A stretch of DNA of 11,541 nucleotides from an uncultured Deinococcales bacterium (GTDB taxonomy: Bacteria > Deinococcota > Deinococci > Deinococcales > JAAFIG01): NCBI GenBank assembly GCA_964244895.1, contig CAXTKV010000133.1, forward strand, positions 1 to 11,541. The letters are read 5' to 3'. The position numbers and the translations under genes were made by a program. The notes beneath the pieces were generated by a model. That model was not told where the DNA came from, searched no databases, and saw nothing but the letters and a program-made list of their open reading frames with translations. Within the stretch, counting starts at the first letter, position 1, and every line of letters begins with the position of its first letter. Of this stretch, positions 1,532 to 10,394 are shown in pieces.

Positions 1532-1572
1532 AGAAGACAAGAACACCGTACAGAACGGTGTTCTTGTCTTCT
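1532..1572. terminator. Perfect 18-bp inverted repeat between convergent genes (probable bidirectional terminator) containing a copy of the 23-bp palindrome
   Basis: AGAAGACAAGAACACCGT-ACAGA-ACGGTGTTCTTGTCTTCT, lying between the stop codons at 1458 (+) and 1616 (-). Confidence 0.75.
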
Positions 1573-1615
1573 GCGAATCGTCGTTGGGCGGTGGATCGAA
1601 CAATCCGGATCGAAG

Positions 1616-2176
1616 CTAGTTCGGTTGGGCGGTGAACACGAAATCGGTCGTGCTGGTTTGCGCCCCGACTTGCAGATTGAGAATCAGGTGGATTCTCGTG
1701 GTCGCCCTGATCGGGTACGCGAACATCGGGTCGGAATACACGCCCGAATAGGTGCGCGCACCCATGCTCAACAGCGGAAAGAAATTGTCCACCATGCGAT
1801 CCTTCGCATCTATGACGGTCGGTGCTTGCGGTGGCAATTTGGAAACATAGGTGCGCTGTTCAATCGCGATCTTCGAGCTTCGACCGTCGGGCAGCAGGAT
1901 GCTCGAGTTGTCCCACAAGATCTGCGCGCTCTGCTCGGTTTTGTTGATGACCTCGACGTTGAAGTAACGCCGCGCGACCTTGATCTTGATGTCGTAGGCG
2001 GGCGTCGAGTAGATCCAGGTATCGCCCTGCGCCCCAATCGGTGTCTTGTTGACCTGCAGGTTGAAAACCCGCGCTCCCTCGTCGAAGCCGATGTCCGGAC
2101 CCGTGGTGCTCGTGTTGGCTGGCGCGCAGCCCGCGAGCAACCCCGCGAGCGCAATGCTGGCAATCAGTTTGTTCAT
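1616..2176 (-). CDS. Lipoprotein of unknown function (186 aa)
   Basis: Signal peptide with lipobox MNKLIASIALAGLLAG-C; GAGGAG RBS just upstream on the minus strand; beta-rich mature domain. Confidence 0.85.
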   Translation of the reverse strand: MNKLIASIALAGLLAGCAPANTSTTGPDIGFDEGARVFNLQVNKTPIGAQGDTWIYSTPAYDIKIKVARRYFNVEVINKTEQSAQILWDNSSILLPDGRSSKIAIEQRTYVSKLPPQAPTVIDAKDRMVDNFFPLLSMGARTYSGVYSDPMFAYPIRATTRIHLILNLQVGAQTSTTDFVFTAQPN

Positions 2177-2337
2177 GGCTTCTCCTCGCCGTGCGCGATG
2201 AACCGGTGTGGTCGCGTGTCGTGAATGCCGGTGTCCGCGCTTCCAGCGCTCTCGAACTCTCGCTCATCGTAGTTTTAAGGCAAAAGCTTCGGTATCAAAA
2301 CGCACACTCGAGTTGTTCGCGGCTTGGCCGCGAGGTG

Positions 2338-2352
2338 CACCGTGCTGGACGG
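2338..2352 (-). repeat. Partial palindrome-family copy in inverted core orientation
   Basis: CACCGTGCTGGACGG; its reverse complement CCGTCCAGCACGGTG is identical to part of the 5747 copy. Confidence 0.7.
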
Positions 2353-2370
2353 CAATATTTCCGTGCCCAG

Positions 2371-2393
2371 GAACACCGTCCAGGACGGTGTTC
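2371..2393. repeat. Perfect 23-bp palindrome GAACACCGTCC-A-GGACGGTGTTC
   Basis: Read directly; identical to 9016-9038. Confidence 0.95.
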
Positions 2394-2559
2394 TCGAGAA
2401 GGTGGGTTTTCAGGGCGATGTTCGGCTTCTAAACTCGAGCTGCTCATACCGACGGAGGTTCGAGGTTGCGCAGCGCCAGGAACCCATGTGCGTTATCGCC
2501 GGAGTTTTTTCGAGAACGTGCGAGCAATGAAACGTTGTTACGCCTCAGGGGCAAATTTC

Positions 2560-2766
2560 GTGCATCTACAAACAACTCTGAAGATCTCCCCGACGGAGAT
2601 CAATATGTTATGTAACGCCGTGTGGGAGGCACTCGTGTCTCTCGGGGCCACCCCCCACATGGTGGGTGTGCTTCCCGAAACGCCAAGTACGTTGGAGGTT
2701 CGGTACACCGCTTCTGGTGATGCTGCTGAGCAGTGCGCAGCCTACCTTCAGCGTCTTCGGCGCTAA
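2560..2766 (+). CDS. Small hypothetical protein (68 aa from GTG 2560; alternative starts ATG 2527 or ATG 2605)
   Basis: 3' part of the listed 2191..2766 ORF. GGAG lies 6 nt before ATG 2605, and a strong intrinsic terminator follows the stop directly. Confidence 0.5.
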   Translation: MHLQTTLKISPTEINMLCNAVWEALVSLGATPHMVGVLPETPSTLEVRYTASGDAAEQCAAYLQRLRR

Positions 2767-2775
2767 CGGTAGGTC

Positions 2776-2815
2776 ACAGAAGAGAACGCTTTGCGTCTCT
2801 CTTCTGTTTTTGTTT
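2776..2815 (+). terminator. Rho-independent terminator
   Basis: ACAGAAGAGA-ACGC-TTT-GCGT-C-TCTCTTCTGT followed by TTTTGTTT, 10 nt after the stop at 2766. Confidence 0.75.
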
Positions 2816-2927
2816 CACCCGACCAGGTTCGAAGTGTTTTGCTCAGTCCCGTTGCGCGGTTCGGATGGATTTGGCCTGAGGGTTTGCTGAGGAAAAGCAA
2901 TTCCGAACTCAGGATAATGAGTGAAGA

Positions 2928-2950
2928 AAACGCTGTTCAGGACGGTATTC
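2928..2950. repeat. Degenerate copy of the 23-bp palindrome (18/23)
   Basis: AAACGCTGTTCAGGACGGTATTC; all five differences from the consensus are transitions. Confidence 0.75.
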
Positions 2951-3405
2951 CTGAGCCAATACGCAGGTTTTTGCCGACCTTAATTAAGACGAAACGTCAC
3001 GAAAGGCATCTTTCAGAATCGCAGGATGTGTGTTCTTGACCCTCAGATCTCTCATCCGTGGCACCATGTGCTCATTCGTGTTCGAGTGACACGCATCGCT
3101 TGTGATTCGAAAGCTTCAGCTCGAGCCAGTCGGTTGGGTGAACGTGCCCGACCGACCCCTGGTCATGTGGCTAGGTGGTGCGTGGCTCGCCTGGCCCGAC
3201 CTCTCCATTCGGGCGATGGCAGGCGCGTCATAGATTTGGCACACTCCGGGCAACGATCTTTTTGGCATGCGAAACGCGGACGGCGCTCGTCCGAAATGCG
3301 AAAAGGAACGCCGTTGAAGCTCTGCGGTGCAAAAGTGCAATCAGCCATTGGTGGCTGATCGCCGAAGCAGAGGTTGAGCCCATTCAAATGGAGGAGGTCG
3401 AAATC

Positions 3406-4416
3406 ATGCTCTCGTCACAGGATTCCGCCAACATCCCAAATCCGGCCAGGTCCAGCATCGTGTGCTTGTGCGGCTGCGATCGGTTCAAACAAGCCTTCGA
3501 GGCCACCGCGCGCTGGTTGACACTCGAGGGCATGATCGTCACCAGCGTCATCAACGAAACCGCTGATGATTCGCCCGTCACCCAGATAGACGAGGTGGAT
3601 CTGCAAAAAATAGAGATGTGCGACGAGCTGTTGGTGATGAACGTCAACGGCTACATGGACGCGCTGACCCGCTTGCAGGTCAACCACGCGCAACGCATCG
3701 GAAAGATGATCCGTTTTCTCGAGGCCGCTGACTGGAATCCCTCGTTGCGCGGCGTGCGTCGGGCACCTCACGCCGCTAAACCCCTGGCGCTCGAGGATCA
3801 AAGCTCGCTCGCGCTCGAAGAAGGTACCGTCATCGATCTGACGCGTCCGTTCGTGGTGCAAAGCGGCGCAGTCCTGCTGTACGGCCCCGACCCGACGCGT
3901 CCCGCTTTCACGCTGGTCAGCGATCACGTCTGGCCGGGCGTGCGTTGGGTTCCCGAAGTCTGGTACGCCGAAGCCACCAGCAACACCCGCATCGGTGCGT
4001 TCAGTGCCGACGATGCCGCCCTGCGTCCGCTCGGCGAGATCATCCGTTGGGCAGTCGCGACCAGCGGCCAGATTTCGGAACGGATGTTGTGGGCCTTGTT
4101 CATCATCGGATCGGTCAGCACCCAGGAAGAACTGAGCGCCGTGATCGGTTGCCGCCGCGAATCGGTGACTTCCGCCATGCGCGATTTGCGCAACGATGGG
4201 CTGATCGAGAAAGTTGATGGCCGGATTCTCCTGACCGACAAGGGATTCGCCTGTGCGGCAAAGCTCTGCTCGCTCGAGCGCGATCTGAACGACGACACCG
4301 ATGAGAGCGACGACGCCGAAGATGAATCGGTCGTCTGGAACGAAGCACCAATCGATGCCGCTGAATCGGTGATCAACCTGCGCGGCGAAACTCGACGCTG
4401 GATGGTGGCGCAATGA
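3406..4416 (+). CDS. Crp/Fnr-type HTH regulator with an N-terminal nucleoside 2-deoxyribosyltransferase-like (flavodoxin-fold) domain
   Basis: GGAGGAGG RBS at 3390-3397 favours ATG 3406 over 3175. N-terminal IVCLCGCDRFKQAF...LQKIEMCDELLVMNVNGY...HAQRIGKMIRFLE; middle FVVQSGAVLLY...YAEATSNTRI resembles a reduced cNMP barrel; Crp HTH TQEELSAVIGCRRESVTSAMRDLRNDGLIE; acidic tail. Confidence 0.8.
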   Translation: MLSSQDSANIPNPARSSIVCLCGCDRFKQAFEATARWLTLEGMIVTSVINETADDSPVTQIDEVDLQKIEMCDELLVMNVNGYMDALTRLQVNHAQRIGKMIRFLEAADWNPSLRGVRRAPHAAKPLALEDQSSLALEEGTVIDLTRPFVVQSGAVLLYGPDPTRPAFTLVSDHVWPGVRWVPEVWYAEATSNTRIGAFSADDAALRPLGEIIRWAVATSGQISERMLWALFIIGSVSTQEELSAVIGCRRESVTSAMRDLRNDGLIEKVDGRILLTDKGFACAAKLCSLERDLNDDTDESDDAEDESVVWNEAPIDAAESVINLRGETRRWMVAQ

Positions 4417-4667
4417 TGCGCGCACTCGAAGCCCGCGTGGCCGGACATCTCAAGGCTTCGCGCCGCGCCACCGATCTGGAACAGGTTCGCGCCCTGGTGC
4501 GGCTGGTGGCGCTGACCGAATGCCCCGCGCGCGAGTTGGTGAAGGCGCTGCGGGCGCGACTGGACGGCGGGTTCTCGCTCGAGGCGGCCACGGACAGAAT
4601 CATCGAATGCTGGCAGAACCAGCGCCAGCTGCTCGAGCGCGACGAGTTCGCATCGCCCGGCGTCTGA
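4413..4667 (+). CDS. Small helical hypothetical protein (84 aa)
   Basis: ATGATG overlaps the upstream TGA (translational coupling); fills the gap before parB. Confidence 0.65.
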   Translation: MMRALEARVAGHLKASRRATDLEQVRALVRLVALTECPARELVKALRARLDGGFSLEAATDRIIECWQNQRQLLERDEFASPGV

Positions 4668-4755
4668 ACGCACCTGAAACTCGAGCCTCAACGATGTTCG
4701 CCCGTCGCGTAGGCAGTGCGCCCTTCGCGGTCAGACTGGATGGGCTGGAGGAAAC

Positions 4756-5712
4756 ATGCAAGCGATCACCGATGTGACCCTCAAGGCAGGCGTTCCCGTT
4801 GCGCTCGAGGGCCTCTGGCCTTCAGAAGTCAACCAGATAGAAGTGCTGGCGCTCTCGCAGTTGGTGCTGGGAACCTACCAGCCGCGAAAGCATTTCGATC
4901 CCAAAAAGCTCGATGAACTGACCGCCTCGATCCGCACGCATGGCGTGCTGCAACCCATCGTGGTGCGCCCCGTCGGGGCGGAGCGTTTCGAGATCATCGC
5001 CGGAGAGCGGCGTTACATGGCCTCGCAGCGCGCCGGTCTGCAACGCATTCCCGCCGTGATCAAAAACCTCGATGACCGCGAGGCGCTCGAGGTCGCGCTG
5101 CTGGTCAACCTGCAGCGCCAGGATCTAACCGAGATCGAGGAAACCGAAGGCGTGTTGCACCTGCTCTCGCTCCGGCTCGAGCGAAGCTTGTCGCAAACGG
5201 TGTCCTTTTTGTACCGCATGGACAACGAATCCAAAAGCAAAGTTACCCAATCGGTGTTGGGCAGCCACGACGGTCATGCGGTCGAATCGGTCTTCGCCAA
5301 ACTGGGCAAGATGACCTGGGGCAGTTTCGTCGCGACGCGTTTACCGCTCCTGAAATTGCCTCACGATCTGCTCGAAGCGCTCCGCTGCGGCGAGATCACG
5401 CCGATCAAAGCGCGCACGCTCTCGCGTTTGACGGATCTCACGGAACGCCGCAGGATGCTGACCGATCTTTTGCGCGAAGGCTGGAGCAACCAGGAGCTTC
5501 GCCACCGCATCGGTCTGCTGACCAACGCTCAACAGCCCCGCGATGCGCGCGTCGCGGTTCGGTTGCGCGCTTTTGAAAGCGCCATTCAGCGCGACCACAC
5601 CTGGACTGATGCTGCCCGCCGTCAACGCGCCCAAAGCCTACTGCGCGAACTCGAGCTCCTGCTGACCGAAGAGGGCTTCTCGTTTCAGTCCGCCCCTCGC
5701 CCGACAGCTTGA
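4756..5712 (+). CDS. parB: ParB/RepB/Spo0J family protein (no parA adjacent)
   Basis: GGAGG RBS; QPRKHFDPKKLDELTASIRTHGVLQPIVVRP...FEIIAGERRYMASQRAGLQRIPAVI...NLQRQDL; later LPLLKLPHDLLEALRCGEIT motif. Confidence 0.93.
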   Translation: MQAITDVTLKAGVPVALEGLWPSEVNQIEVLALSQLVLGTYQPRKHFDPKKLDELTASIRTHGVLQPIVVRPVGAERFEIIAGERRYMASQRAGLQRIPAVIKNLDDREALEVALLVNLQRQDLTEIEETEGVLHLLSLRLERSLSQTVSFLYRMDNESKSKVTQSVLGSHDGHAVESVFAKLGKMTWGSFVATRLPLLKLPHDLLEALRCGEITPIKARTLSRLTDLTERRRMLTDLLREGWSNQELRHRIGLLTNAQQPRDARVAVRLRAFESAIQRDHTWTDAARRQRAQSLLRELELLLTEEGFSFQSAPRPTA

Positions 5713-5745
5713 AGATTTCTCTAGATCCGCAACTGAAACTTTTTG

Positions 5746-5773
5746 AGAACACCGTCCAGCACGGTGTTCTTTT
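5746..5773. repeat. Palindrome-family copy AGAACACCGTCCAGCACGGTGTTCT followed by a T run (possible parB terminator)
   Basis: 22/23 identity to the consensus, about 35 nt after the parB stop. Confidence 0.9.
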
Positions 5774-5897
5774 GAATTAAAACACCGCGTTCCAGACGAT
5801 GTCCAAGAAATACCCGCCCGGTTTTTGAACGATTCGTGCGCGCCGTGAGATTTCAACCCGTCCCGGAACGCTGGTCTTTACGCCGGTGGTGCGGCGT

Positions 5898-5924
5898 TCC
5901 GAACGGGGCAGGTGCCCGTTCGGA
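5898..5924. other. 10-bp perfect inverted repeat (hairpin) in intergenic DNA
   Basis: TCCGAACGGG-GCAGGTG-CCCGTTCGGA. Confidence 0.6.
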
Positions 5925-6041
5925 TCAACCCTCACGCGGTTGGGCTGGCGCATCGCGATCGAGGCATTTGGTATTCACCTGCGCGGTCAATCTCGAGCAA
6001 TCGAGAAATGCCAGGCCGAACTTTGATTGAGGAACTTTGAT

Positions 6042-6629
6042 ATGCAACCTACGAAAACGCGGCTGCCGCACACTCTTGAGCTTGAGAGACGCGAGAGCCC
6101 TTTGAATCTCGAGCCCATTGTGGTTGTGAGAGCGCGGCTCGAGACACTGCTCGAGCGCGTTCCGGACATCGAGCCAGGTGTGAAAGAACTCCGCGACATC
6201 GAAGAATTCCTGCTCGAGCCCGAACGCGACGACTCCAGCGCGCCGAGAAAATCGTTCGTCAACCTGGAGAATGACCCTGGGGACAGCGTTCTTATTCTGA
6301 TCAGCCCGGTAAGCATGAACGTTTGCACGAACGAATTGCGCTTCAACAAACCGGAGCGAGAAAACACCCCGAACCAGCCCGAGAGATGGCTAGGCTACGC
6401 GAGAAATGCCTTCGTGTCGCGCTCGAAGCGATGCAGGCAGAACTCAGGAATCCTTGAGGGACGCGACACGAGGCGGAGGAGGAAGGCATGTTCAAGCGAT
6501 GGTTCGGCATCAACGTTTTATTCGCGTTCATCGCGTTCGCGGGTTCGGTTCAGGCGCAGCCGGTCACGTACTACGCCGATCAACTCGAGGCGGGCGCGAA
6601 ACCGATCCTGGTCTCACCGGGATACCTGA
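6042..6629 (+). CDS. Hypothetical ORF; N-terminal half protein-like, C-terminal half doubtful (overlaps the next gene by 142 nt)
   Basis: GAGGA before ATG 6042; in-frame CTCGAG (Leu-Glu) codon pairs as in neighbouring genes; the Arg/Ser-rich tail looks like off-frame read-through. Confidence 0.3.
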   Translation: MQPTKTRLPHTLELERRESPLNLEPIVVVRARLETLLERVPDIEPGVKELRDIEEFLLEPERDDSSAPRKSFVNLENDPGDSVLILISPVSMNVCTNELRFNKPERENTPNQPERWLGYARNAFVSRSKRCRQNSGILEGRDTRRRRKACSSDGSASTFYSRSSRSRVRFRRSRSRTTPINSRRARNRSWSHRDT

Positions 6630-7507
6630 CGCTGATTGATTTCTACCAGGAAGTTGACAAGGTCACGTCCGGACGGCCCGGACTGCTGAAAGTGGATGGT
6701 GGCGGCACCAGAATCTTCGTTTCTTCCCTGGCCAATTCCGGCGCGACCGATCTGATTATCGAGATCGGAACGCGCGTGCTGCTGTTCCGCGTGCAGATCG
6801 CGCAGGGTGAAACGCCCAGACGGTACATCGTCGCGCTCGAGAAACCAGTCGCGCCCAAACCCGTGCAGCAGGCCAGCCCGCCCCCAGCACCCGTCAGGGC
6901 CGTACAACCAGTCGCACCGGCAGCGACCGTGACACGCCCGAGCCAGCCCACGATGACGACCGTGGATACCCCGCCGCCCGCTGTCGCCGCCCAACCAGCC
7001 CAGACCACCGTGCGCGCGATTGCGACCACGGCTCCCGTCAAGACGAAACCAGCCGCGACCACCAAAACCAGCGCCGAGAACTCGAACACGACATCCAGCT
7101 CAACCTCCAGCTCGACTTCTAGCCCAACCTCCAGCTCGACCTCGGCTCGAATGGGAACCGAACGCAACCCAGCCTGGCTCGAGTTCGCGCTCGTCAAGGC
7201 GCGAACGGAAACTGGTCAGCTCACGATTTACTTCACGCTCAAAAATGCGGGCAAGGCGGGCGTGCTGGTCGACACATCGCGGCTGGTGACTTTTCAAGGA
7301 ACCCAACAGCTCGATACCACCATCGCCAGCGACAAAACGGTGCGCCAACTCCAGCCCGGTGAAACCCGTCTGGTCAGAATCATCGTCAAGCTGTCCAAAC
7401 CCGGCCCGGTTCTTCTGAGATGGTCCATGTTCGGCCCCAACCTGCAAGAGTATTCGCTCAACAGGAGGATCGATGTCACAGGTACTCAGAACTTGTCTGG
7501 CAATTAG
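6488..7507 (+). CDS. Secreted protein: N-terminal beta domain reminiscent of VirB9/TraK-type T4SS proteins, Pro/Ala/Thr/Ser linker, C-terminal Ig-like domain
   Basis: GGAGGAGG RBS; signal peptide ending VQA-Q; PILVSPGYLTLIDF...GATDLII pattern resembles VirB9/TraK N-termini (inference); low-complexity linker; C-terminal LTIYFTLKNAG...LQPGETRLVRI typical of Ig-like folds. Confidence 0.75.
   Translation: MFKRWFGINVLFAFIAFAGSVQAQPVTYYADQLEAGAKPILVSPGYLTLIDFYQEVDKVTSGRPGLLKVDGGGTRIFVSSLANSGATDLIIEIGTRVLLFRVQIAQGETPRRYIVALEKPVAPKPVQQASPPPAPVRAVQPVAPAATVTRPSQPTMTTVDTPPPAVAAQPAQTTVRAIATTAPVKTKPAATTKTSAENSNTTSSSTSSSTSSPTSSSTSARMGTERNPAWLEFALVKARTETGQLTIYFTLKNAGKAGVLVDTSRLVTFQGTQQLDTTIASDKTVRQLQPGETRLVRIIVKLSKPGPVLLRWSMFGPNLQEYSLNRRIDVTGTQNLSGN
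7094..7141 (+). repeat. Four tandem 12-bp repeats encoding a Ser/Thr-rich linker
   Basis: TCCAGCTCAACC TCCAGCTCGACT TCTAGCCCAACC TCCAGCTCGACC. Confidence 0.85.
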
Positions 7508-8966
7508 CGCCATTGCCGGATCGGCAGGTCTGGTCGCGCTGGCGGACAATCAGCCGATCATCGGCGCCCTGTCGCTGATCGAGATCGGTGCGCGCCCAGG
7601 CGCGGGAAACGAAGGGCCGGGACGCGGCGTGCTGCCGAACGGCGTCAACAACAGAACTGCCGATGAGCACGCGTTCGTCGAGGTGCTTCAGGTTCCGCGC
7701 CTGCGCGCCTACCAGAGTTGCCGCGCCAGCAAAGGCGCGGACTGCAACACCAACCCGAAGTACGCGCACGAATGGTCGGTGCCTTACATCAACGAGCAGA
7801 ACTCCGAAAAGCTCGAGGAGGGCCTCTCGAGGGCCTGGAACCGCTTCGATGCCAGGACGCTGTGGCGCATGAATTCGTTGATCAACTCGAACCCCGATCC
7901 GGGGCGAGCGCGCTACAGCTACAGCGGCAACTGCAGCGGATCGAAGCACACCGATCCATTCATCGATGCCTGGAACGACGACACCAGCGGCGAAATTGCC
8001 ACCGATGATTTCTGCGATAACTTGCAGCCAGATGGCGCCGAAGCCTACACCTGCAAGGACAACGGCAAGATCAAGGACATCAGGTGGGGTGTGGTGCAGG
8101 CGCGTTTCGACAAGGTCATGAAGTACTCCACCGAGGTCTATTACCCGTACATGCCAGCTTCCAATCCTGCGGATTACTGGAGCGAAGTTTACGCCACGAT
8201 GGATCTCTGGATGCCCGGCGCACTCGACTGGGACGGCGTTTATGACATTGACCGCTACGGCGCTGGCGGCGGAGTGATACCCCAGGGCGGGTACTCGGTC
8301 GGGTCGGCGGGCGGTTCGACCATCTCGCCGGTGTATTCGATCTTGCCCAACACGCCCATGTACGTCAGTCTGGCGGGCAAAGCGCAAGCGATCGATCCGC
8401 GCGGTTACGATTACATCCTGCGGCAGTACAAGGGCCAGGGTGCCAACCGCAAGAACCTCAAAGCCCTTCCCGGAGATTCGTACAGCACGGACGGTTATCC
8501 CGGCTTGCCCAAAATCGAGGCGCTCAAGTACAACCTCTCCGATCCGAACCGCGATATCTTCTACGCCTCGCCGCCCATGAAGTGGTCGGTCGGCGGTCAG
8601 GCCCGACCGACCGGAGCCAAGGGCCTGGGCAGCATGGTCGAGCAGCAGAACGTCGGCCACGCGACCTTCCTGCGCGTCTGGGCGCGCAAGGACAGGGAAT
8701 ACAGCCCCAGAGAAGTCCATTTCATCGTGAAGTGCAAGAAGGAAACCAAGGATTACCTGATTTCCAAAGGCGACAGGCAGGGCACGAACATCGTCGGCGA
8801 CACGAACCTCAAGCCGGGCTGTTGCAGCCCCGTCACGTTCGACAAAACTCGAGCCCACACGGACTGGAAAAGCATTCCCGAGGGTTACCAGATTCCGAAC
8901 GTGGTCGGCATTCCCATCAACCGCGATCCGACCAGAGCCAACGGCTACATTCCACCGATCAGGTGA
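7473..8966 (+). CDS. Secreted Cys-containing protein of unknown function (497 aa), possibly mating-pair stabilisation type
   Basis: AGGAGG RBS inside the upstream gene; hydrophobic signal ending ALA-D; eight Cys in the mature part; strong GC3 bias. The function is inferred from context only. Confidence 0.8.
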   Translation: MSQVLRTCLAISAIAGSAGLVALADNQPIIGALSLIEIGARPGAGNEGPGRGVLPNGVNNRTADEHAFVEVLQVPRLRAYQSCRASKGADCNTNPKYAHEWSVPYINEQNSEKLEEGLSRAWNRFDARTLWRMNSLINSNPDPGRARYSYSGNCSGSKHTDPFIDAWNDDTSGEIATDDFCDNLQPDGAEAYTCKDNGKIKDIRWGVVQARFDKVMKYSTEVYYPYMPASNPADYWSEVYATMDLWMPGALDWDGVYDIDRYGAGGGVIPQGGYSVGSAGGSTISPVYSILPNTPMYVSLAGKAQAIDPRGYDYILRQYKGQGANRKNLKALPGDSYSTDGYPGLPKIEALKYNLSDPNRDIFYASPPMKWSVGGQARPTGAKGLGSMVEQQNVGHATFLRVWARKDREYSPREVHFIVKCKKETKDYLISKGDRQGTNIVGDTNLKPGCCSPVTFDKTRAHTDWKSIPEGYQIPNVVGIPINRDPTRANGYIPPIR

Positions 8967-8980
8967 GCGCAGGCTGATCA

Positions 8981-8997
8981 GAAGACCGTCCAGCACG
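8981..8997 (+). repeat. Partial palindrome-family copy
   Basis: GAAGACCGTCCAGCACG matches the first 17 nt of the 5747 copy at 16/17. Confidence 0.75.
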
Positions 8998-9012
8998 CGA
9001 ATTCTACGCGCG

Positions 9013-9045
9013 AAAGAACACCGTCCAGGACGGTGTTCTTTTTTT
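9013..9045. repeat. Perfect palindrome copy AAAGAACACCGTCCAGGACGGTGTTCTTT plus T run (doubles as an intrinsic terminator)
   Basis: Core 9016-9038 identical to 2371-2393, followed by TTTTTTT, about 50 nt after the 8966 stop. Confidence 0.93.
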
Positions 9046-9238
9046 GGATCGCGCTCTGTTCTCGAGGGTGGGCGTCGTTCGATCTTGGGCACGCGTGCCC
9101 CCGACCCGCGCTCCAGCTTCACACCCGAGCAGAGGCTCGAGATTCGGGCTCGCGCCGCCGCGCGGAATTCGGTCGAGCCCAGGAATTTCAGGTGCGTTCT
9201 TGACGCGCTTGACCGTCGGAGTTGAAGAGAATGCAGTC

Positions 9239-9865
9239 ATGTTTTTCCAACCGCAACACCTGCGTTTCTGGCTGGCTGGCGCGGCCCTGTTTGCGGCGGC
9301 TCTGTGGGGCGTGGTGGTCTTGCTGGCCAACCAAAAAGATGCCGAACAGACCGCCAGGCTCGAGGCGACGCGCGGCACCGTGCTGGTCAGCCGCGCCAAA
9401 GCGCGAGGTGGTTTGAAGTCCGGCATCGGTCTGGAAGTGCGCTACACCAAGCTCGAGCGCACGCACACGCTGGGCGAGGTTCGTTACGTCAGCGCGCCGC
9501 CGGTCGGTGGCCCGCACAGCAGCATCTGGCAGAACTGCGGCGCCTACGATCAGCCCGTCCCCGACCTGACCGCCGTGCATTCACTCGAACACGGCGCGGT
9601 CTGGATTACCTACAAACCGGGCCTCGATGCCGCTGCGGTGGCGCGTCTGCGCGATCTCGCGCGCAAACCCTACGTGCTCGTCTCGCCGTACCCAACGCAA
9701 AGCGCCCCGATCACCGCGACCGCCTGGGGTGCGCAACTGCAACTCGGTCGGGCAGATGAGGCAAAACTCGAGGACTTCGTGGCGCGCTACACCAACCGGC
9801 GTGACGGCCCCGAATACGGCGCTCCGTGCGCGGGCGGCACGGGCATTCCGCTCGGTGCGAGTTGA
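9239..9865 (+). CDS. DUF3105 domain membrane-anchored protein
   Basis: N-terminal TM helix; PPVGGPHSSIWQNCGAYDQPV...VHSLEHGAVWITY...VLVSPYP...ITATAWG...GPEYGAPC motifs. Start moved to ATG 9239 because the listed N-terminus is non-protein-like. Confidence 0.88.
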   Translation: MFFQPQHLRFWLAGAALFAAALWGVVVLLANQKDAEQTARLEATRGTVLVSRAKARGGLKSGIGLEVRYTKLERTHTLGEVRYVSAPPVGGPHSSIWQNCGAYDQPVPDLTAVHSLEHGAVWITYKPGLDAAAVARLRDLARKPYVLVSPYPTQSAPITATAWGAQLQLGRADEAKLEDFVARYTNRRDGPEYGAPCAGGTGIPLGAS

Positions 9866-9897
9866 AACTCGCGCCAGTTCAACCCGGAGGAAAAAAC

Positions 9898-10314
9898 ATG
9901 AACGCGTTGACCCATAACAAACGATTCTCAGGACTTCAGATTGCGCTCTTCGCGGCGCTCTCAATGCTCGGATTATCCGGTTGCAACACGATCGGTGATC
10001 TGCTCGGCGTCAGCCCCGCTCGTGGCACGCTCAACCTGACGATCACGGGGCCGCAGGGCGCGCAGGTCAGCGCGACCGTCACCGGTGCGGACGAAGGCCC
10101 GCAGACCTTGACCGATGATGGTCGCGGCTTCACCAAAGCCTTGTCGCTCAGACCGGGCAACTACCCGATCACGGCCAGCGCCCTGAGCGGTTACGTCGCG
10201 CAGATCGCCGTCAAGCAATCCTCCGGCAACAGCACCAGGGATGGGTCTTACACGGTTCCGGTCGAATCCGGCGGTGTCACCACCGTGTCGGTCACGTACC
10301 GCGTCGGCCCGTGA
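9898..10314 (+). CDS. Lipoprotein with a beta-sandwich (PEGA/Ig-like) domain
   Basis: GGAGG RBS 7 nt before ATG 9898; lipobox LGLSG-C; GTLNLTITG...LRPGNYPITA...VESGGVTTVSVTY. Confidence 0.82.
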   Translation: MNALTHNKRFSGLQIALFAALSMLGLSGCNTIGDLLGVSPARGTLNLTITGPQGAQVSATVTGADEGPQTLTDDGRGFTKALSLRPGNYPITASALSGYVAQIAVKQSSGNSTRDGSYTVPVESGGVTTVSVTYRVGP

Positions 10315-10348
10315 ATCTACGGCGAACCTCGAGAACTCGCGCCACGCC

Positions 10349-10394
10349 ACGCCGTCCAGCACGCAGATTTTTAACGCGTGCCGGACGGCGTTTT
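10349..10394 (+). terminator. 16-bp inverted repeat (one mismatch) built from two palindrome-family cores, followed by Ts
   Basis: ACGCCGTCCAGCACGC-agatttttaac-GCGTGCCGGACGGCGT-TTT, 35 nt after the 10314 stop. Confidence 0.7.

What the first reader, a model, noticed from the sequence alone, without database searches (positions are those of the whole stretch)
1532..10391. Dispersed 23-bp palindrome marks most boundaries between transcription units
Seen: GAACACCGTCCAGGACGGTGTTC is perfect at 2371 and 9016, near-perfect at 5747 (22/23) and 1541 (21/23), and degenerate at 2928 (18/23). Partial copies occur at 2338, 8981, 10349 and 10376, with weaker traces at 2409-2423, 5780-5804 and 6268-6292. 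The strong copies are all intergenic. The sequence is conserved, not only the hairpin, and the 2371 and 2928 copies are not at terminator positions. Inference: this is a protein-binding site family, such as parS-like or KorB O_B-like operators for the local ParB or sites for the Crp fusion, that also serves as terminators; alternatively it is a REP-like element. It is not the canonical 16-bp chromosomal parS or the TGTGA-N6-TCACA Crp site.
Basis: partly seen in the sequence, partly recalled or inferred. Interest (0 to 1): 0.82.

Follow-up and report, generated by a model that had tools for sequence, protein, structure and literature searches.

The report
Deinococcota's IHF-like bend site, massively expanded
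The 23-base repeat is one of about 5,000 copies in this genome, mostly in pairs 25 or 35 bases apart, of a motif that in related bacteria sits in replication origins and CRISPR leaders at the places where other bacteria bind the DNA-bending protein IHF, so it is likely the binding site of an IHF stand-in, possibly their HU protein.

Summary
The copies are real but not local. The genome holds about 5,150 sites on 315 of 328 contigs; 96-97% of the pairs are intergenic, and this contig is not enriched. The unit is a symmetric core CGTSYNRSACG with A/T flanks, mostly paired at 25/26 or 35/36 bp. Pairs are nearly all unique, show little arm covariation, no G-U bias, no U-tail and no target duplication; the genome's RAYT-like gene carries other REPs. 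In relatives the motif is rare but placed: in the DnaA-box interspace of oriC (top 1% of the locus in 21 of 31) and at -23/-24 of type I-C CRISPR leaders (12 of 14), often again at -117 (7 of 14). In control Pseudomonadota leaders the IHF consensus starts at -23 in 4 of 8 and the motif scores negative in 7 of 8. It is likely the site of an IHF-equivalent bending protein, HU being the best candidate; binding is untested. Another genome (G152) expanded it separately. The scan noted this family before on another piece of this genome (e1-2224752) as REP-like.

The parts
1541..1563 (.). single site (centre 1552) inside a perfect 18-bp-stem hairpin 1532-1572 between convergent genes; likely also a terminator
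   Evidence: score 21.0; -29.2 kcal/mol, z -9.1
2335..2357 (.). weaker site of a 36-bp pair (centre 2346)
   Evidence: 14.6
2371..2393 (.). consensus site of the 36-bp pair (centre 2382), divergent gap
   Evidence: 27.5
2928..2950 (.). single site (centre 2939), poor hairpin
   Evidence: 20.2; z -1.4
5747..5769 (.). strong site of a 35-bp pair just after parB (centre 5758)
   Evidence: 26.7
5782..5804 (.). weaker site of that pair (centre 5793)
   Evidence: 14.4
8981..9003 (.). first site of a 35-bp pair (centre 8992)
   Evidence: 24.8
9016..9038 (.). consensus site of that pair (centre 9027), with A-run before and T-run after; likely also a terminator
   Evidence: (27.5)
10347..10369 (.). first site of a 24-bp pair (centre 10358)
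   Evidence: 14.1
10371..10393 (.). second site of that pair (centre 10382)
   Evidence: 20.7

Best explanation
The repeat is a symmetric motif (core CGTSYNRSACG, AA/TT about 10 bp from the centre) that stands at IHF's positions in origins and type I-C CRISPR leaders across the order, and is likely the double-stranded binding site of a DNA-bending protein that replaces IHF there, most plausibly the clade's HU. Shown: the motif, its placement in relatives, its ~5,000 copies here and their pairing at 25/26 or 35/36 bp. Inferred: a dimer binds each site and kinks it at the two CpG/TpG steps that lie 9 bp apart (the HU/IHF kink spacing, recalled); two sites 2.4 or 3.4 turns apart would put two dimers on opposite faces and give an S-shaped bend in about half of all intergenic gaps, shaping the chromosome and gene ends as IHF does in E. 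coli BIME-1/RIB elements. Inferred origin: a small repeat carrying a site pair spread (the young state is seen in G152), then linkers drifted while cores and spacing were kept. The spreading enzyme is not identified. Confidence split: bend-protein site about 0.8; reader is HU about 0.6.
For: oriC: the motif scores at a fixed offset (-19/-20 from a DUE-proximal DnaA box, in the ~34-bp interspace) in the top 0.1% of the locus in 12 of 31 and top 1% in 21 of 31 origins; this interspace matches the one bound by IHF in E. coli and by HU in T. maritima (PMC10325909, passages). Type I-C leaders: centre at -23/-24 in 12 of 14 usable leaders outside this genome (p<=0.0033), second copy at -116 to -118 in 7 of 14 (p<=0.001), and both in this genome's own leader; most I-C leaders are reported to hold several IHF sites (10.1101/2023.05.26.542337, passages). 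Control: in 8 clean Pseudomonadota I-C leaders the motif scores negative at -24 to -22 in 7, while the IHF consensus starts at -23 in 4 (two with 0 mismatches); 0 of 15 leaders of this order have an IHF-like match within -45 to -5. Geometry: neighbour spacings 25 (801), 26 (133), 35 (555), 36 (204), with few between apart from 30/31 (52). Not copies: 790 of 791 and 539 of 539 pairs distinct. Not RNA-led: G-T 406 vs A-C 436 and 323 vs 408; T-tail 24 vs A-head 20 of 457. Orthologous pairs kept in 3 of 4 intergenic comparisons with relatives at 75-84% identity while linkers changed. For HU: several genomes with the placed motif gave one HU match; all 36 HU rows of the order have arm tip GV[KR]PGT against GRNP[KR]T in 8 outgroup rows; 12 of 19 HU genes of the family have a site upstream against 10 of 80 control windows.
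Against: No binding or bending data. HU is generally described as sequence-non-specific (PMC5683647 abstract, PMC10325909, PMC13769266 passages). 10 of 31 origins and 2 of 14 I-C leaders lack the site at the fixed place; 30 type I-E loci show no clear site. The oriC anchor and offset were chosen after seeing hits, and kin are not independent (three origins are nearly identical). HU-upstream sites are 3 of 6, 1 of 3 and 0 of 5 in three other families. HU does not differ visibly in this genome, so it does not explain the expansion. 25-bp pairs do show some arm covariation (centre 0.54 vs 0.40), favour convergent gaps and lie near stop codons. 25 bp is shorter than IHF's 30-35 bp footprint.
Confidence: 0.68

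Rival explanations
1. An old REP/REPIN-type family that acts as RNA or single-strand hairpins at gene ends, spread by a RAYT and now decaying; the placement in relatives is a separate matter.
For: Intergenic, paired, enriched in convergent gaps (472 of 600) and within 20 nt of stop codons; 25-bp pairs fold well and covary a little; a RAYT-like gene is present; one in-frame pair is an insertion relative to 2 of 4 relatives; REP dimers with variable spacers of similar length are known (PMC3733652, passages).
Against: No terminal GTAG/CGTC tag; no master sequence; no covariation in 35-bp pairs, inner arms anti-correlated; no G-U or U-tail asymmetry; the RAYT-like gene is not flanked by the motif and carries GTAG-type REPs; conservation is uneven by position (50-98%), unlike decay; does not explain oriC and leader placement.
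Confidence: 0.12
2. The motif is a bend-protein site, but the reader is another order-wide DNA-binding protein, not of the HU family.
For: Same placement evidence; GC-rich, strongly base-specific core unlike known HU/IHF sites; HU reported non-specific elsewhere.
Against: No candidate found: the DUF1931 histone fold is in 1 of 5 genomes tested and not in this one; site geometry and sites upstream of HU genes point to HU. The proteome was not screened systematically.
Confidence: 0.14
3. A DNA uptake signal (DUS/USS-like) that built up by biased uptake and recombination.
For: Thousands of copies, genus-specific abundance (775 exact vs at most 5 in 300 other genomes); enriched in coding DNA over synonymous shuffles (448 vs 161-201); one coding pair arose with almost no length change.
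Against: Strong sites are mostly paired and intergenic, whereas uptake signals are mostly single and often coding (recalled); symmetric core; fixed placement at oriC and leaders in genomes without the expansion.
Confidence: 0.04
4. Operator or parS-like site of the ParB or Crp-like fusion encoded in this window.
For: A pair follows parB; no canonical parS was found in this genome at up to 2 mismatches; four ParB_N genes exist.
Against: Sites on 315 of 328 contigs, this contig below the median density; placed motif across the order; in one relative a canonical parS lies beside a motif copy as a separate sequence (L039). Presence of this ParB in relatives was not tested.
Confidence: 0.02

Closest known systems
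IHF-binding site (WATCAAnnnnTTR) of Proteobacteria at oriC and in type I-C/I-E/I-F CRISPR leaders
   Same: Same positions: DnaA-box interspace next to the unwinding element; about -23 and about -117 in I-C leaders beside the same upstream GGTTCGCG word.
   Different: Unrelated, GC-rich, symmetric sequence; no IHF subunit among this genome's three HU-family genes; not clearly used in I-E leaders.
E. coli BIME-1 / RIB elements (two REPs around an IHF site; PMC2817692, passages)
   Same: Dispersed intergenic repeat near gene ends that carries a bend-protein site.
   Different: Here the repeat is itself two inferred bend sites at helical phase, about 1,800 pairs, with no REP tag and no conserved linker.
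REP/REPIN families with RAYT (PMC3733652, PMC2817692, passages)
   Same: High copy number, intergenic, paired, lineage-specific, rare in-frame copies.
   Different: No tag, no master copy, weak arm complementarity, RAYT-like gene tied to other REPs.
Sequence-specific HU-family homodimers such as Borrelia Hbb (recalled, not from a call)
   Same: An HU-fold protein doing IHF's job in a lineage without IHF.
   Different: Binding is untested here; site is GC-rich and expanded genome-wide.
Neisseria DUS / Pasteurellaceae USS (recalled)
   Same: Thousands of short conserved words, some in coding DNA.
   Different: Mostly paired, symmetric and intergenic here.

Membership tests
REP/REPIN (RAYT-associated) | high-copy extragenic palindromes, often in dimers | tested here: met
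REP/REPIN (RAYT-associated) | terminal GTAG or CGTC tetranucleotide tag | tested here: not met
   CGTC is internal to the core; ends are RAA...TTY (definition PMC3733652)
REP/REPIN (RAYT-associated) | cognate RAYT gene flanked by the repeat | tested here: not met
   RAYT-like gene C12:40619-41188 (NF047646 52 bits, cut-off 80) carries GTAG-type REPs; nearest motif hits about 670 and 490 bp away inside neighbouring genes; assembly is 91% complete
REP/REPIN (RAYT-associated) | master sequence with identical copies; complementary arms kept | tested here: not met
   790 of 791 and 539 of 539 distinct; covariation absent in 35-bp pairs, weak in 25-bp pairs
MITE | conserved interior and target-site duplication | tested here: not met
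   variable linkers; no duplication signal in 1,656 pairs
Intrinsic terminator (as a class) | U-tract after the stem and strand asymmetry with transcription | tested here: not met
   single copies such as 1532-1572 are exceptions
IHF site (membership) | WATCAAnnnnTTR consensus | tested here: not met
IHF site (membership) | IHF alpha/beta encoded in the genome | tested here: not met
   three HU-family genes, all grouping with the order's HU and apart from outgroup IHF-like rows
IHF-equivalent bend site (works like) | placed in the oriC DnaA-box interspace | tested here: met
   21 of 31 in the top 1% of their locus
IHF-equivalent bend site (works like) | replaces IHF sites in type I-C leaders | tested here: met
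   12 of 14 proximal, 7 of 14 distal; outgroup control
IHF-equivalent bend site (works like) | placed in type I-E leaders | tested here: inconclusive
   only a weak half match at -9 in one leader group among 30 loci
IHF-equivalent bend site (works like) | bound and sharply bent by a protein | not testable with these tools
   needs EMSA, footprint, cyclisation or structure
parS / ParB operator | few sites, clustered near origin or on the element | tested here: not met
DNA uptake sequence | biased uptake | not testable with these tools
   needs competence assay
DNA uptake sequence | mostly single, largely in coding DNA | tested here: not met
   coding excess exists but is the minority

The most novel reading that the evidence does not exclude
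Deinococcota HU is a sequence-specific, IHF-like bending protein with a GC-rich symmetric site that drives origin opening and CRISPR adaptation in Thermus and Deinococcus relatives, and this lineage has written about 1,800 helically phased pairs of that site into half of its intergenic gaps as a sequence-encoded scaffold for the nucleoid.
Probability: 0.45. Interest if true: 0.92.

Novelty: new variant of a known kind. Interest (0 to 1): 0.82.

Why it matters
HU is taught as sequence-non-specific, and how lineages without IHF bend oriC and CRISPR leaders is open. This gives a concrete site, a candidate protein with a solved relative (5EKA) and point mutations to test in laboratory Thermus and Deinococcus. 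It also offers a case in which a dispersed bacterial repeat is kept for double-stranded protein binding and helical phase rather than for hairpins, with two separate expansions (this genome and G152) to compare.

Tried and rejected
Rfam: no match in the window. Pfam Y1_Tnp: none in this genome, but tblastn found a RAYT-like gene that it missed; it is tied to other REPs. GTDB-wide exact search of a 21-mer: 2 stretches outside this genome. Viral contigs: 0 pairs. Degenerate 25/26-bp pair pattern: 318 sites here, 0 in 300 other genomes. Repeat dialects in 233 kb from 8 family members: only CTCGAG words. Type I-E leaders: no clear site. DUF1931 histone as reader: 1 of 5 genomes. Insertion into CTCGAG with duplication: both flanks 24 vs 49 expected. 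Target-site duplication: none. Y1 gene of G152: not flanked by its repeat family. Sequencing runs: no RNA holder listed. Six HU rows of family f3 and one outgroup row were not parsed and are missing from the alignment and tree. Literature: nine answered searches on the topic and one on REPs showed no description of the motif in listings; PMC3733652 has no hit for Deinococc, Thermus, Meiothermus or Truepera in its main text (supplements not read). Santiago-Frangos et al. 2021 (PMC8552246), the main survey of leader motifs, is not held and may bear on novelty. Two earlier-finding look-ups returned nothing.
Full report
Observation. The five named copies are at the stated places with the stated identities, far above chance (0 of 200 shuffles). 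The 'partial copies' are second members of pairs with centres 36, 35, 35 and 24 bp apart. Two weak traces (2409-2423, 6268-6292) are not supported. The window encodes a TPR/LuxR regulator, a Crp-HTH fusion, a ParB-family protein, DUF3105 and TraX-like proteins.

Not local. The genome (5.12 Mb, 328 contigs, 91% complete) has 545 sites within 3 mismatches on 217 contigs. A weight matrix gives 6,658 strand hits against 89 in the reversed genome, merging into 5,157 elements on 315 contigs and 3,273 clusters: 1,828 pairs, 1,418 singles, 27 larger. This contig has 4.6 strong clusters per 10 kb; the median of 190 contigs is 5.5. With my own gene calls (dicodon model, 79% coding), 908 of 942 short pairs and 751 of 777 long pairs are intergenic; 472 of 600 convergent, 322 of 617 divergent and 1,363 of 2,869 tandem gaps hold a site.

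Anatomy. The symmetric profile is R A A n n n C G T S Y N R S A C G n n n T T Y; the core positions are 92-98% conserved, others about 50%. The step at -5/-4 is CG or TG in 7,322 of 7,478 half-sites, and the centre triplet is nearly always Y-N-R. Neighbour spacings are 25 (801), 26 (133), 35 (555), 36 (204), with minor classes at 30/31 (52) and 41/42 (37). Linkers are A/T-rich and variable: 790 of 791 and 539 of 539 pairs are distinct. Arms do not covary in 35-bp pairs, covary weakly in 25-bp pairs (centre 0.54 vs 0.40), and inner arms are anti-correlated. In the transcribed direction there is no G-T over A-C excess (406 vs 436; 323 vs 408) and no T-tail (24 vs 20 of 457). There is no target duplication. 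Coding DNA holds 448 hits against 161-201 in six synonymous shuffles (the shuffle also breaks codon context). One in-frame pair is an insertion against 2 of 4 relatives, in a linker that varies in the other two; another arose with almost no length change.

Distribution. An exact 16-mer occurs 775 times here and at most 5 times in any of 300 other genomes of the order. Five metagenome contigs, four of them 75-84% identical to this genome, hold the same pairs; in 3 of 4 intergenic comparisons the pair is kept at the orthologous place while the linker changes and spacing moves 26/25 or 36/35. A run with a relative about 90% alike has a syntenic 8-kb contig with small indels in the linkers. G152, in another family, has its own repeat (136 matches; 0 in 4 other genomes of that family) made of a half-matching site and a full site 36 bp apart in 30 of 32 copies shown, with conserved linker and flanks: a separate, younger expansion.

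Where the rare copies sit. The few hits in other genomes lay among DnaA boxes, beside tRNA ends and in iteron-like regions. I then tested fixed positions. One search gave loci for 30 of 39 dnaA matches; with this genome that is 31 origins. The motif lies 19 (or 20) bp before a DUE-proximal DnaA box, within the ~34-bp interspace, in the top 0.1% of the locus in 12 and the top 1% in 21; 10 miss. The offset was first noticed, so this is not a blind test, and kin are not independent. In E. coli IHF binds the R1-R5M interspace and in T. maritima HU binds the like interspace (PMC10325909, passages). Of 19 type I-C cas1 loci, one is this genome's, three had no array and one was masked. In the other 14 leaders the motif centre is at -23/-24 in 12 (p<=0.0033; four families) and again at -116 to -118 in 7 (p<=0.001); this genome's leader has both (17.2 and 8.2). 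Most I-C leaders are reported to hold several IHF sites (10.1101/2023.05.26.542337, passages). Control: of 12 I-C loci from 101 Pseudomonadota genomes, three had no array and one was gapped; in the 8 clean leaders the motif scores negative at -24 to -22 in 7, and the IHF consensus starts at -23 in 4 (two exact; offsets uncertain by 1-3 bp in two). No leader of the 15 from this order has an IHF-like match between -45 and -5. Both groups show the upstream word GGTTCGCG (read by eye). So the motif stands in for the IHF site in an otherwise shared leader. Thirty type I-E loci gave no clear site.

This genome has three HU-family genes, all grouping with the order's HU. Several genomes with the placed motif gave a single HU match (G022, G025, G031, G033, G034). 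All 36 rows from the order have the arm tip GV[KR]PGT, the 8 outgroup rows GRNP[KR]T. Sites lie upstream of 12 of 19 HU genes of this family against 10 of 80 control windows, but of only 4 of 14 in three other families. The two CpG steps enclose 9 bp, the HU/IHF kink spacing (recalled). Against this, HU is described as non-specific (PMC5683647 abstract and passages; PMC13769266 passages). The histone fold DUF1931 is in 1 of 5 genomes. HU is therefore a candidate, not a result.

Mechanism. Shown: motif, pairing, placement, substitution for IHF. Inferred: a dimer bends each site; pairs 2.4 or 3.4 turns apart would set two dimers on opposite faces; the family began as a copied repeat, as in G152, and is now held by selection on cores and phase. 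Some copies double as terminators (1532-1572). The spreading enzyme is unknown: the one RAYT-like gene found carries GTAG-type REPs and is not flanked by the motif, whereas RAYTs are flanked by their REPs (PMC2817692, passages).

Known and new. It works like an IHF site, and at genome scale like BIME-1/RIB, but is a member of neither by sequence, and fails the REP tests. Nine topic searches (listings only) showed no description; the 2021 leader-motif survey could not be read and supplements were not read. Verdict: new variant of a known kind, interest 0.82.

Noticed in passing
G000 whole genome; L003-L020: CTCGAG occurs about 21,900 times here and at 4.6-7.2 per kb in all eight family members sampled: a family-wide highly iterated palindrome, while most other 6-bp palindromes are strongly avoided.
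   Followed up: partly
G152 (L026-L030, L164-L169): Own repeat family of at least 136 copies: site pair 36 bp apart flanked by 7-mer-like A-rich and T-rich arrays; not found in four other genomes of its family.
   Followed up: partly
G000:C12:40619-41188: Intact RAYT-like Y1 gene missed by Pfam, with GTAG-type REPs at its 5' end and inside; about ten such REP palindromes counted in the genome.
   Followed up: partly
G000:C99 MetH-like gene; L183, L185: The same linker carries unrelated insertions in three genomes, one of them REP-like by its peptide.
   Followed up: no
L031-L034, L038, L041: The motif sits among iteron-like repeats in apparent mobile elements of relatives, in three loci as two copies 144 bp apart.
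   Followed up: no
L001, L040, L044: Motif copies directly 3' of tRNA genes, possibly at integration sites.
   Followed up: no
L121-L136: One group of type I-E leaders has a conserved half match to the motif centred 9 bp before the first repeat.
   Followed up: partly
G000:C117:13596-13874 and C10:5198-5500: Two divergent HU paralogues forming a well-supported clade with paralogues of the same family; one is found in all 18 family genomes searched, in one of them only as contig-end fragments.
   Followed up: partly
G000 C5, C15, C50, C36, C70: Stretches of 17-55 kb without strong sites, likely recent islands.
   Followed up: no
G000: No canonical parS within 2 mismatches although four ParB_N genes are present; assembly is 91% complete.
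   Followed up: no
G000, 41-bp pair class: About 25-29 pairs at 41 bp have a distinct flank (AAGACC outer arm, TTTT at about -26).
   Followed up: no
window 3406-4416, 6488-8966: Crp-HTH fused behind an unassigned N-terminal part; two secreted-looking proteins (339 and 497 aa) without a Pfam family.
   Followed up: no
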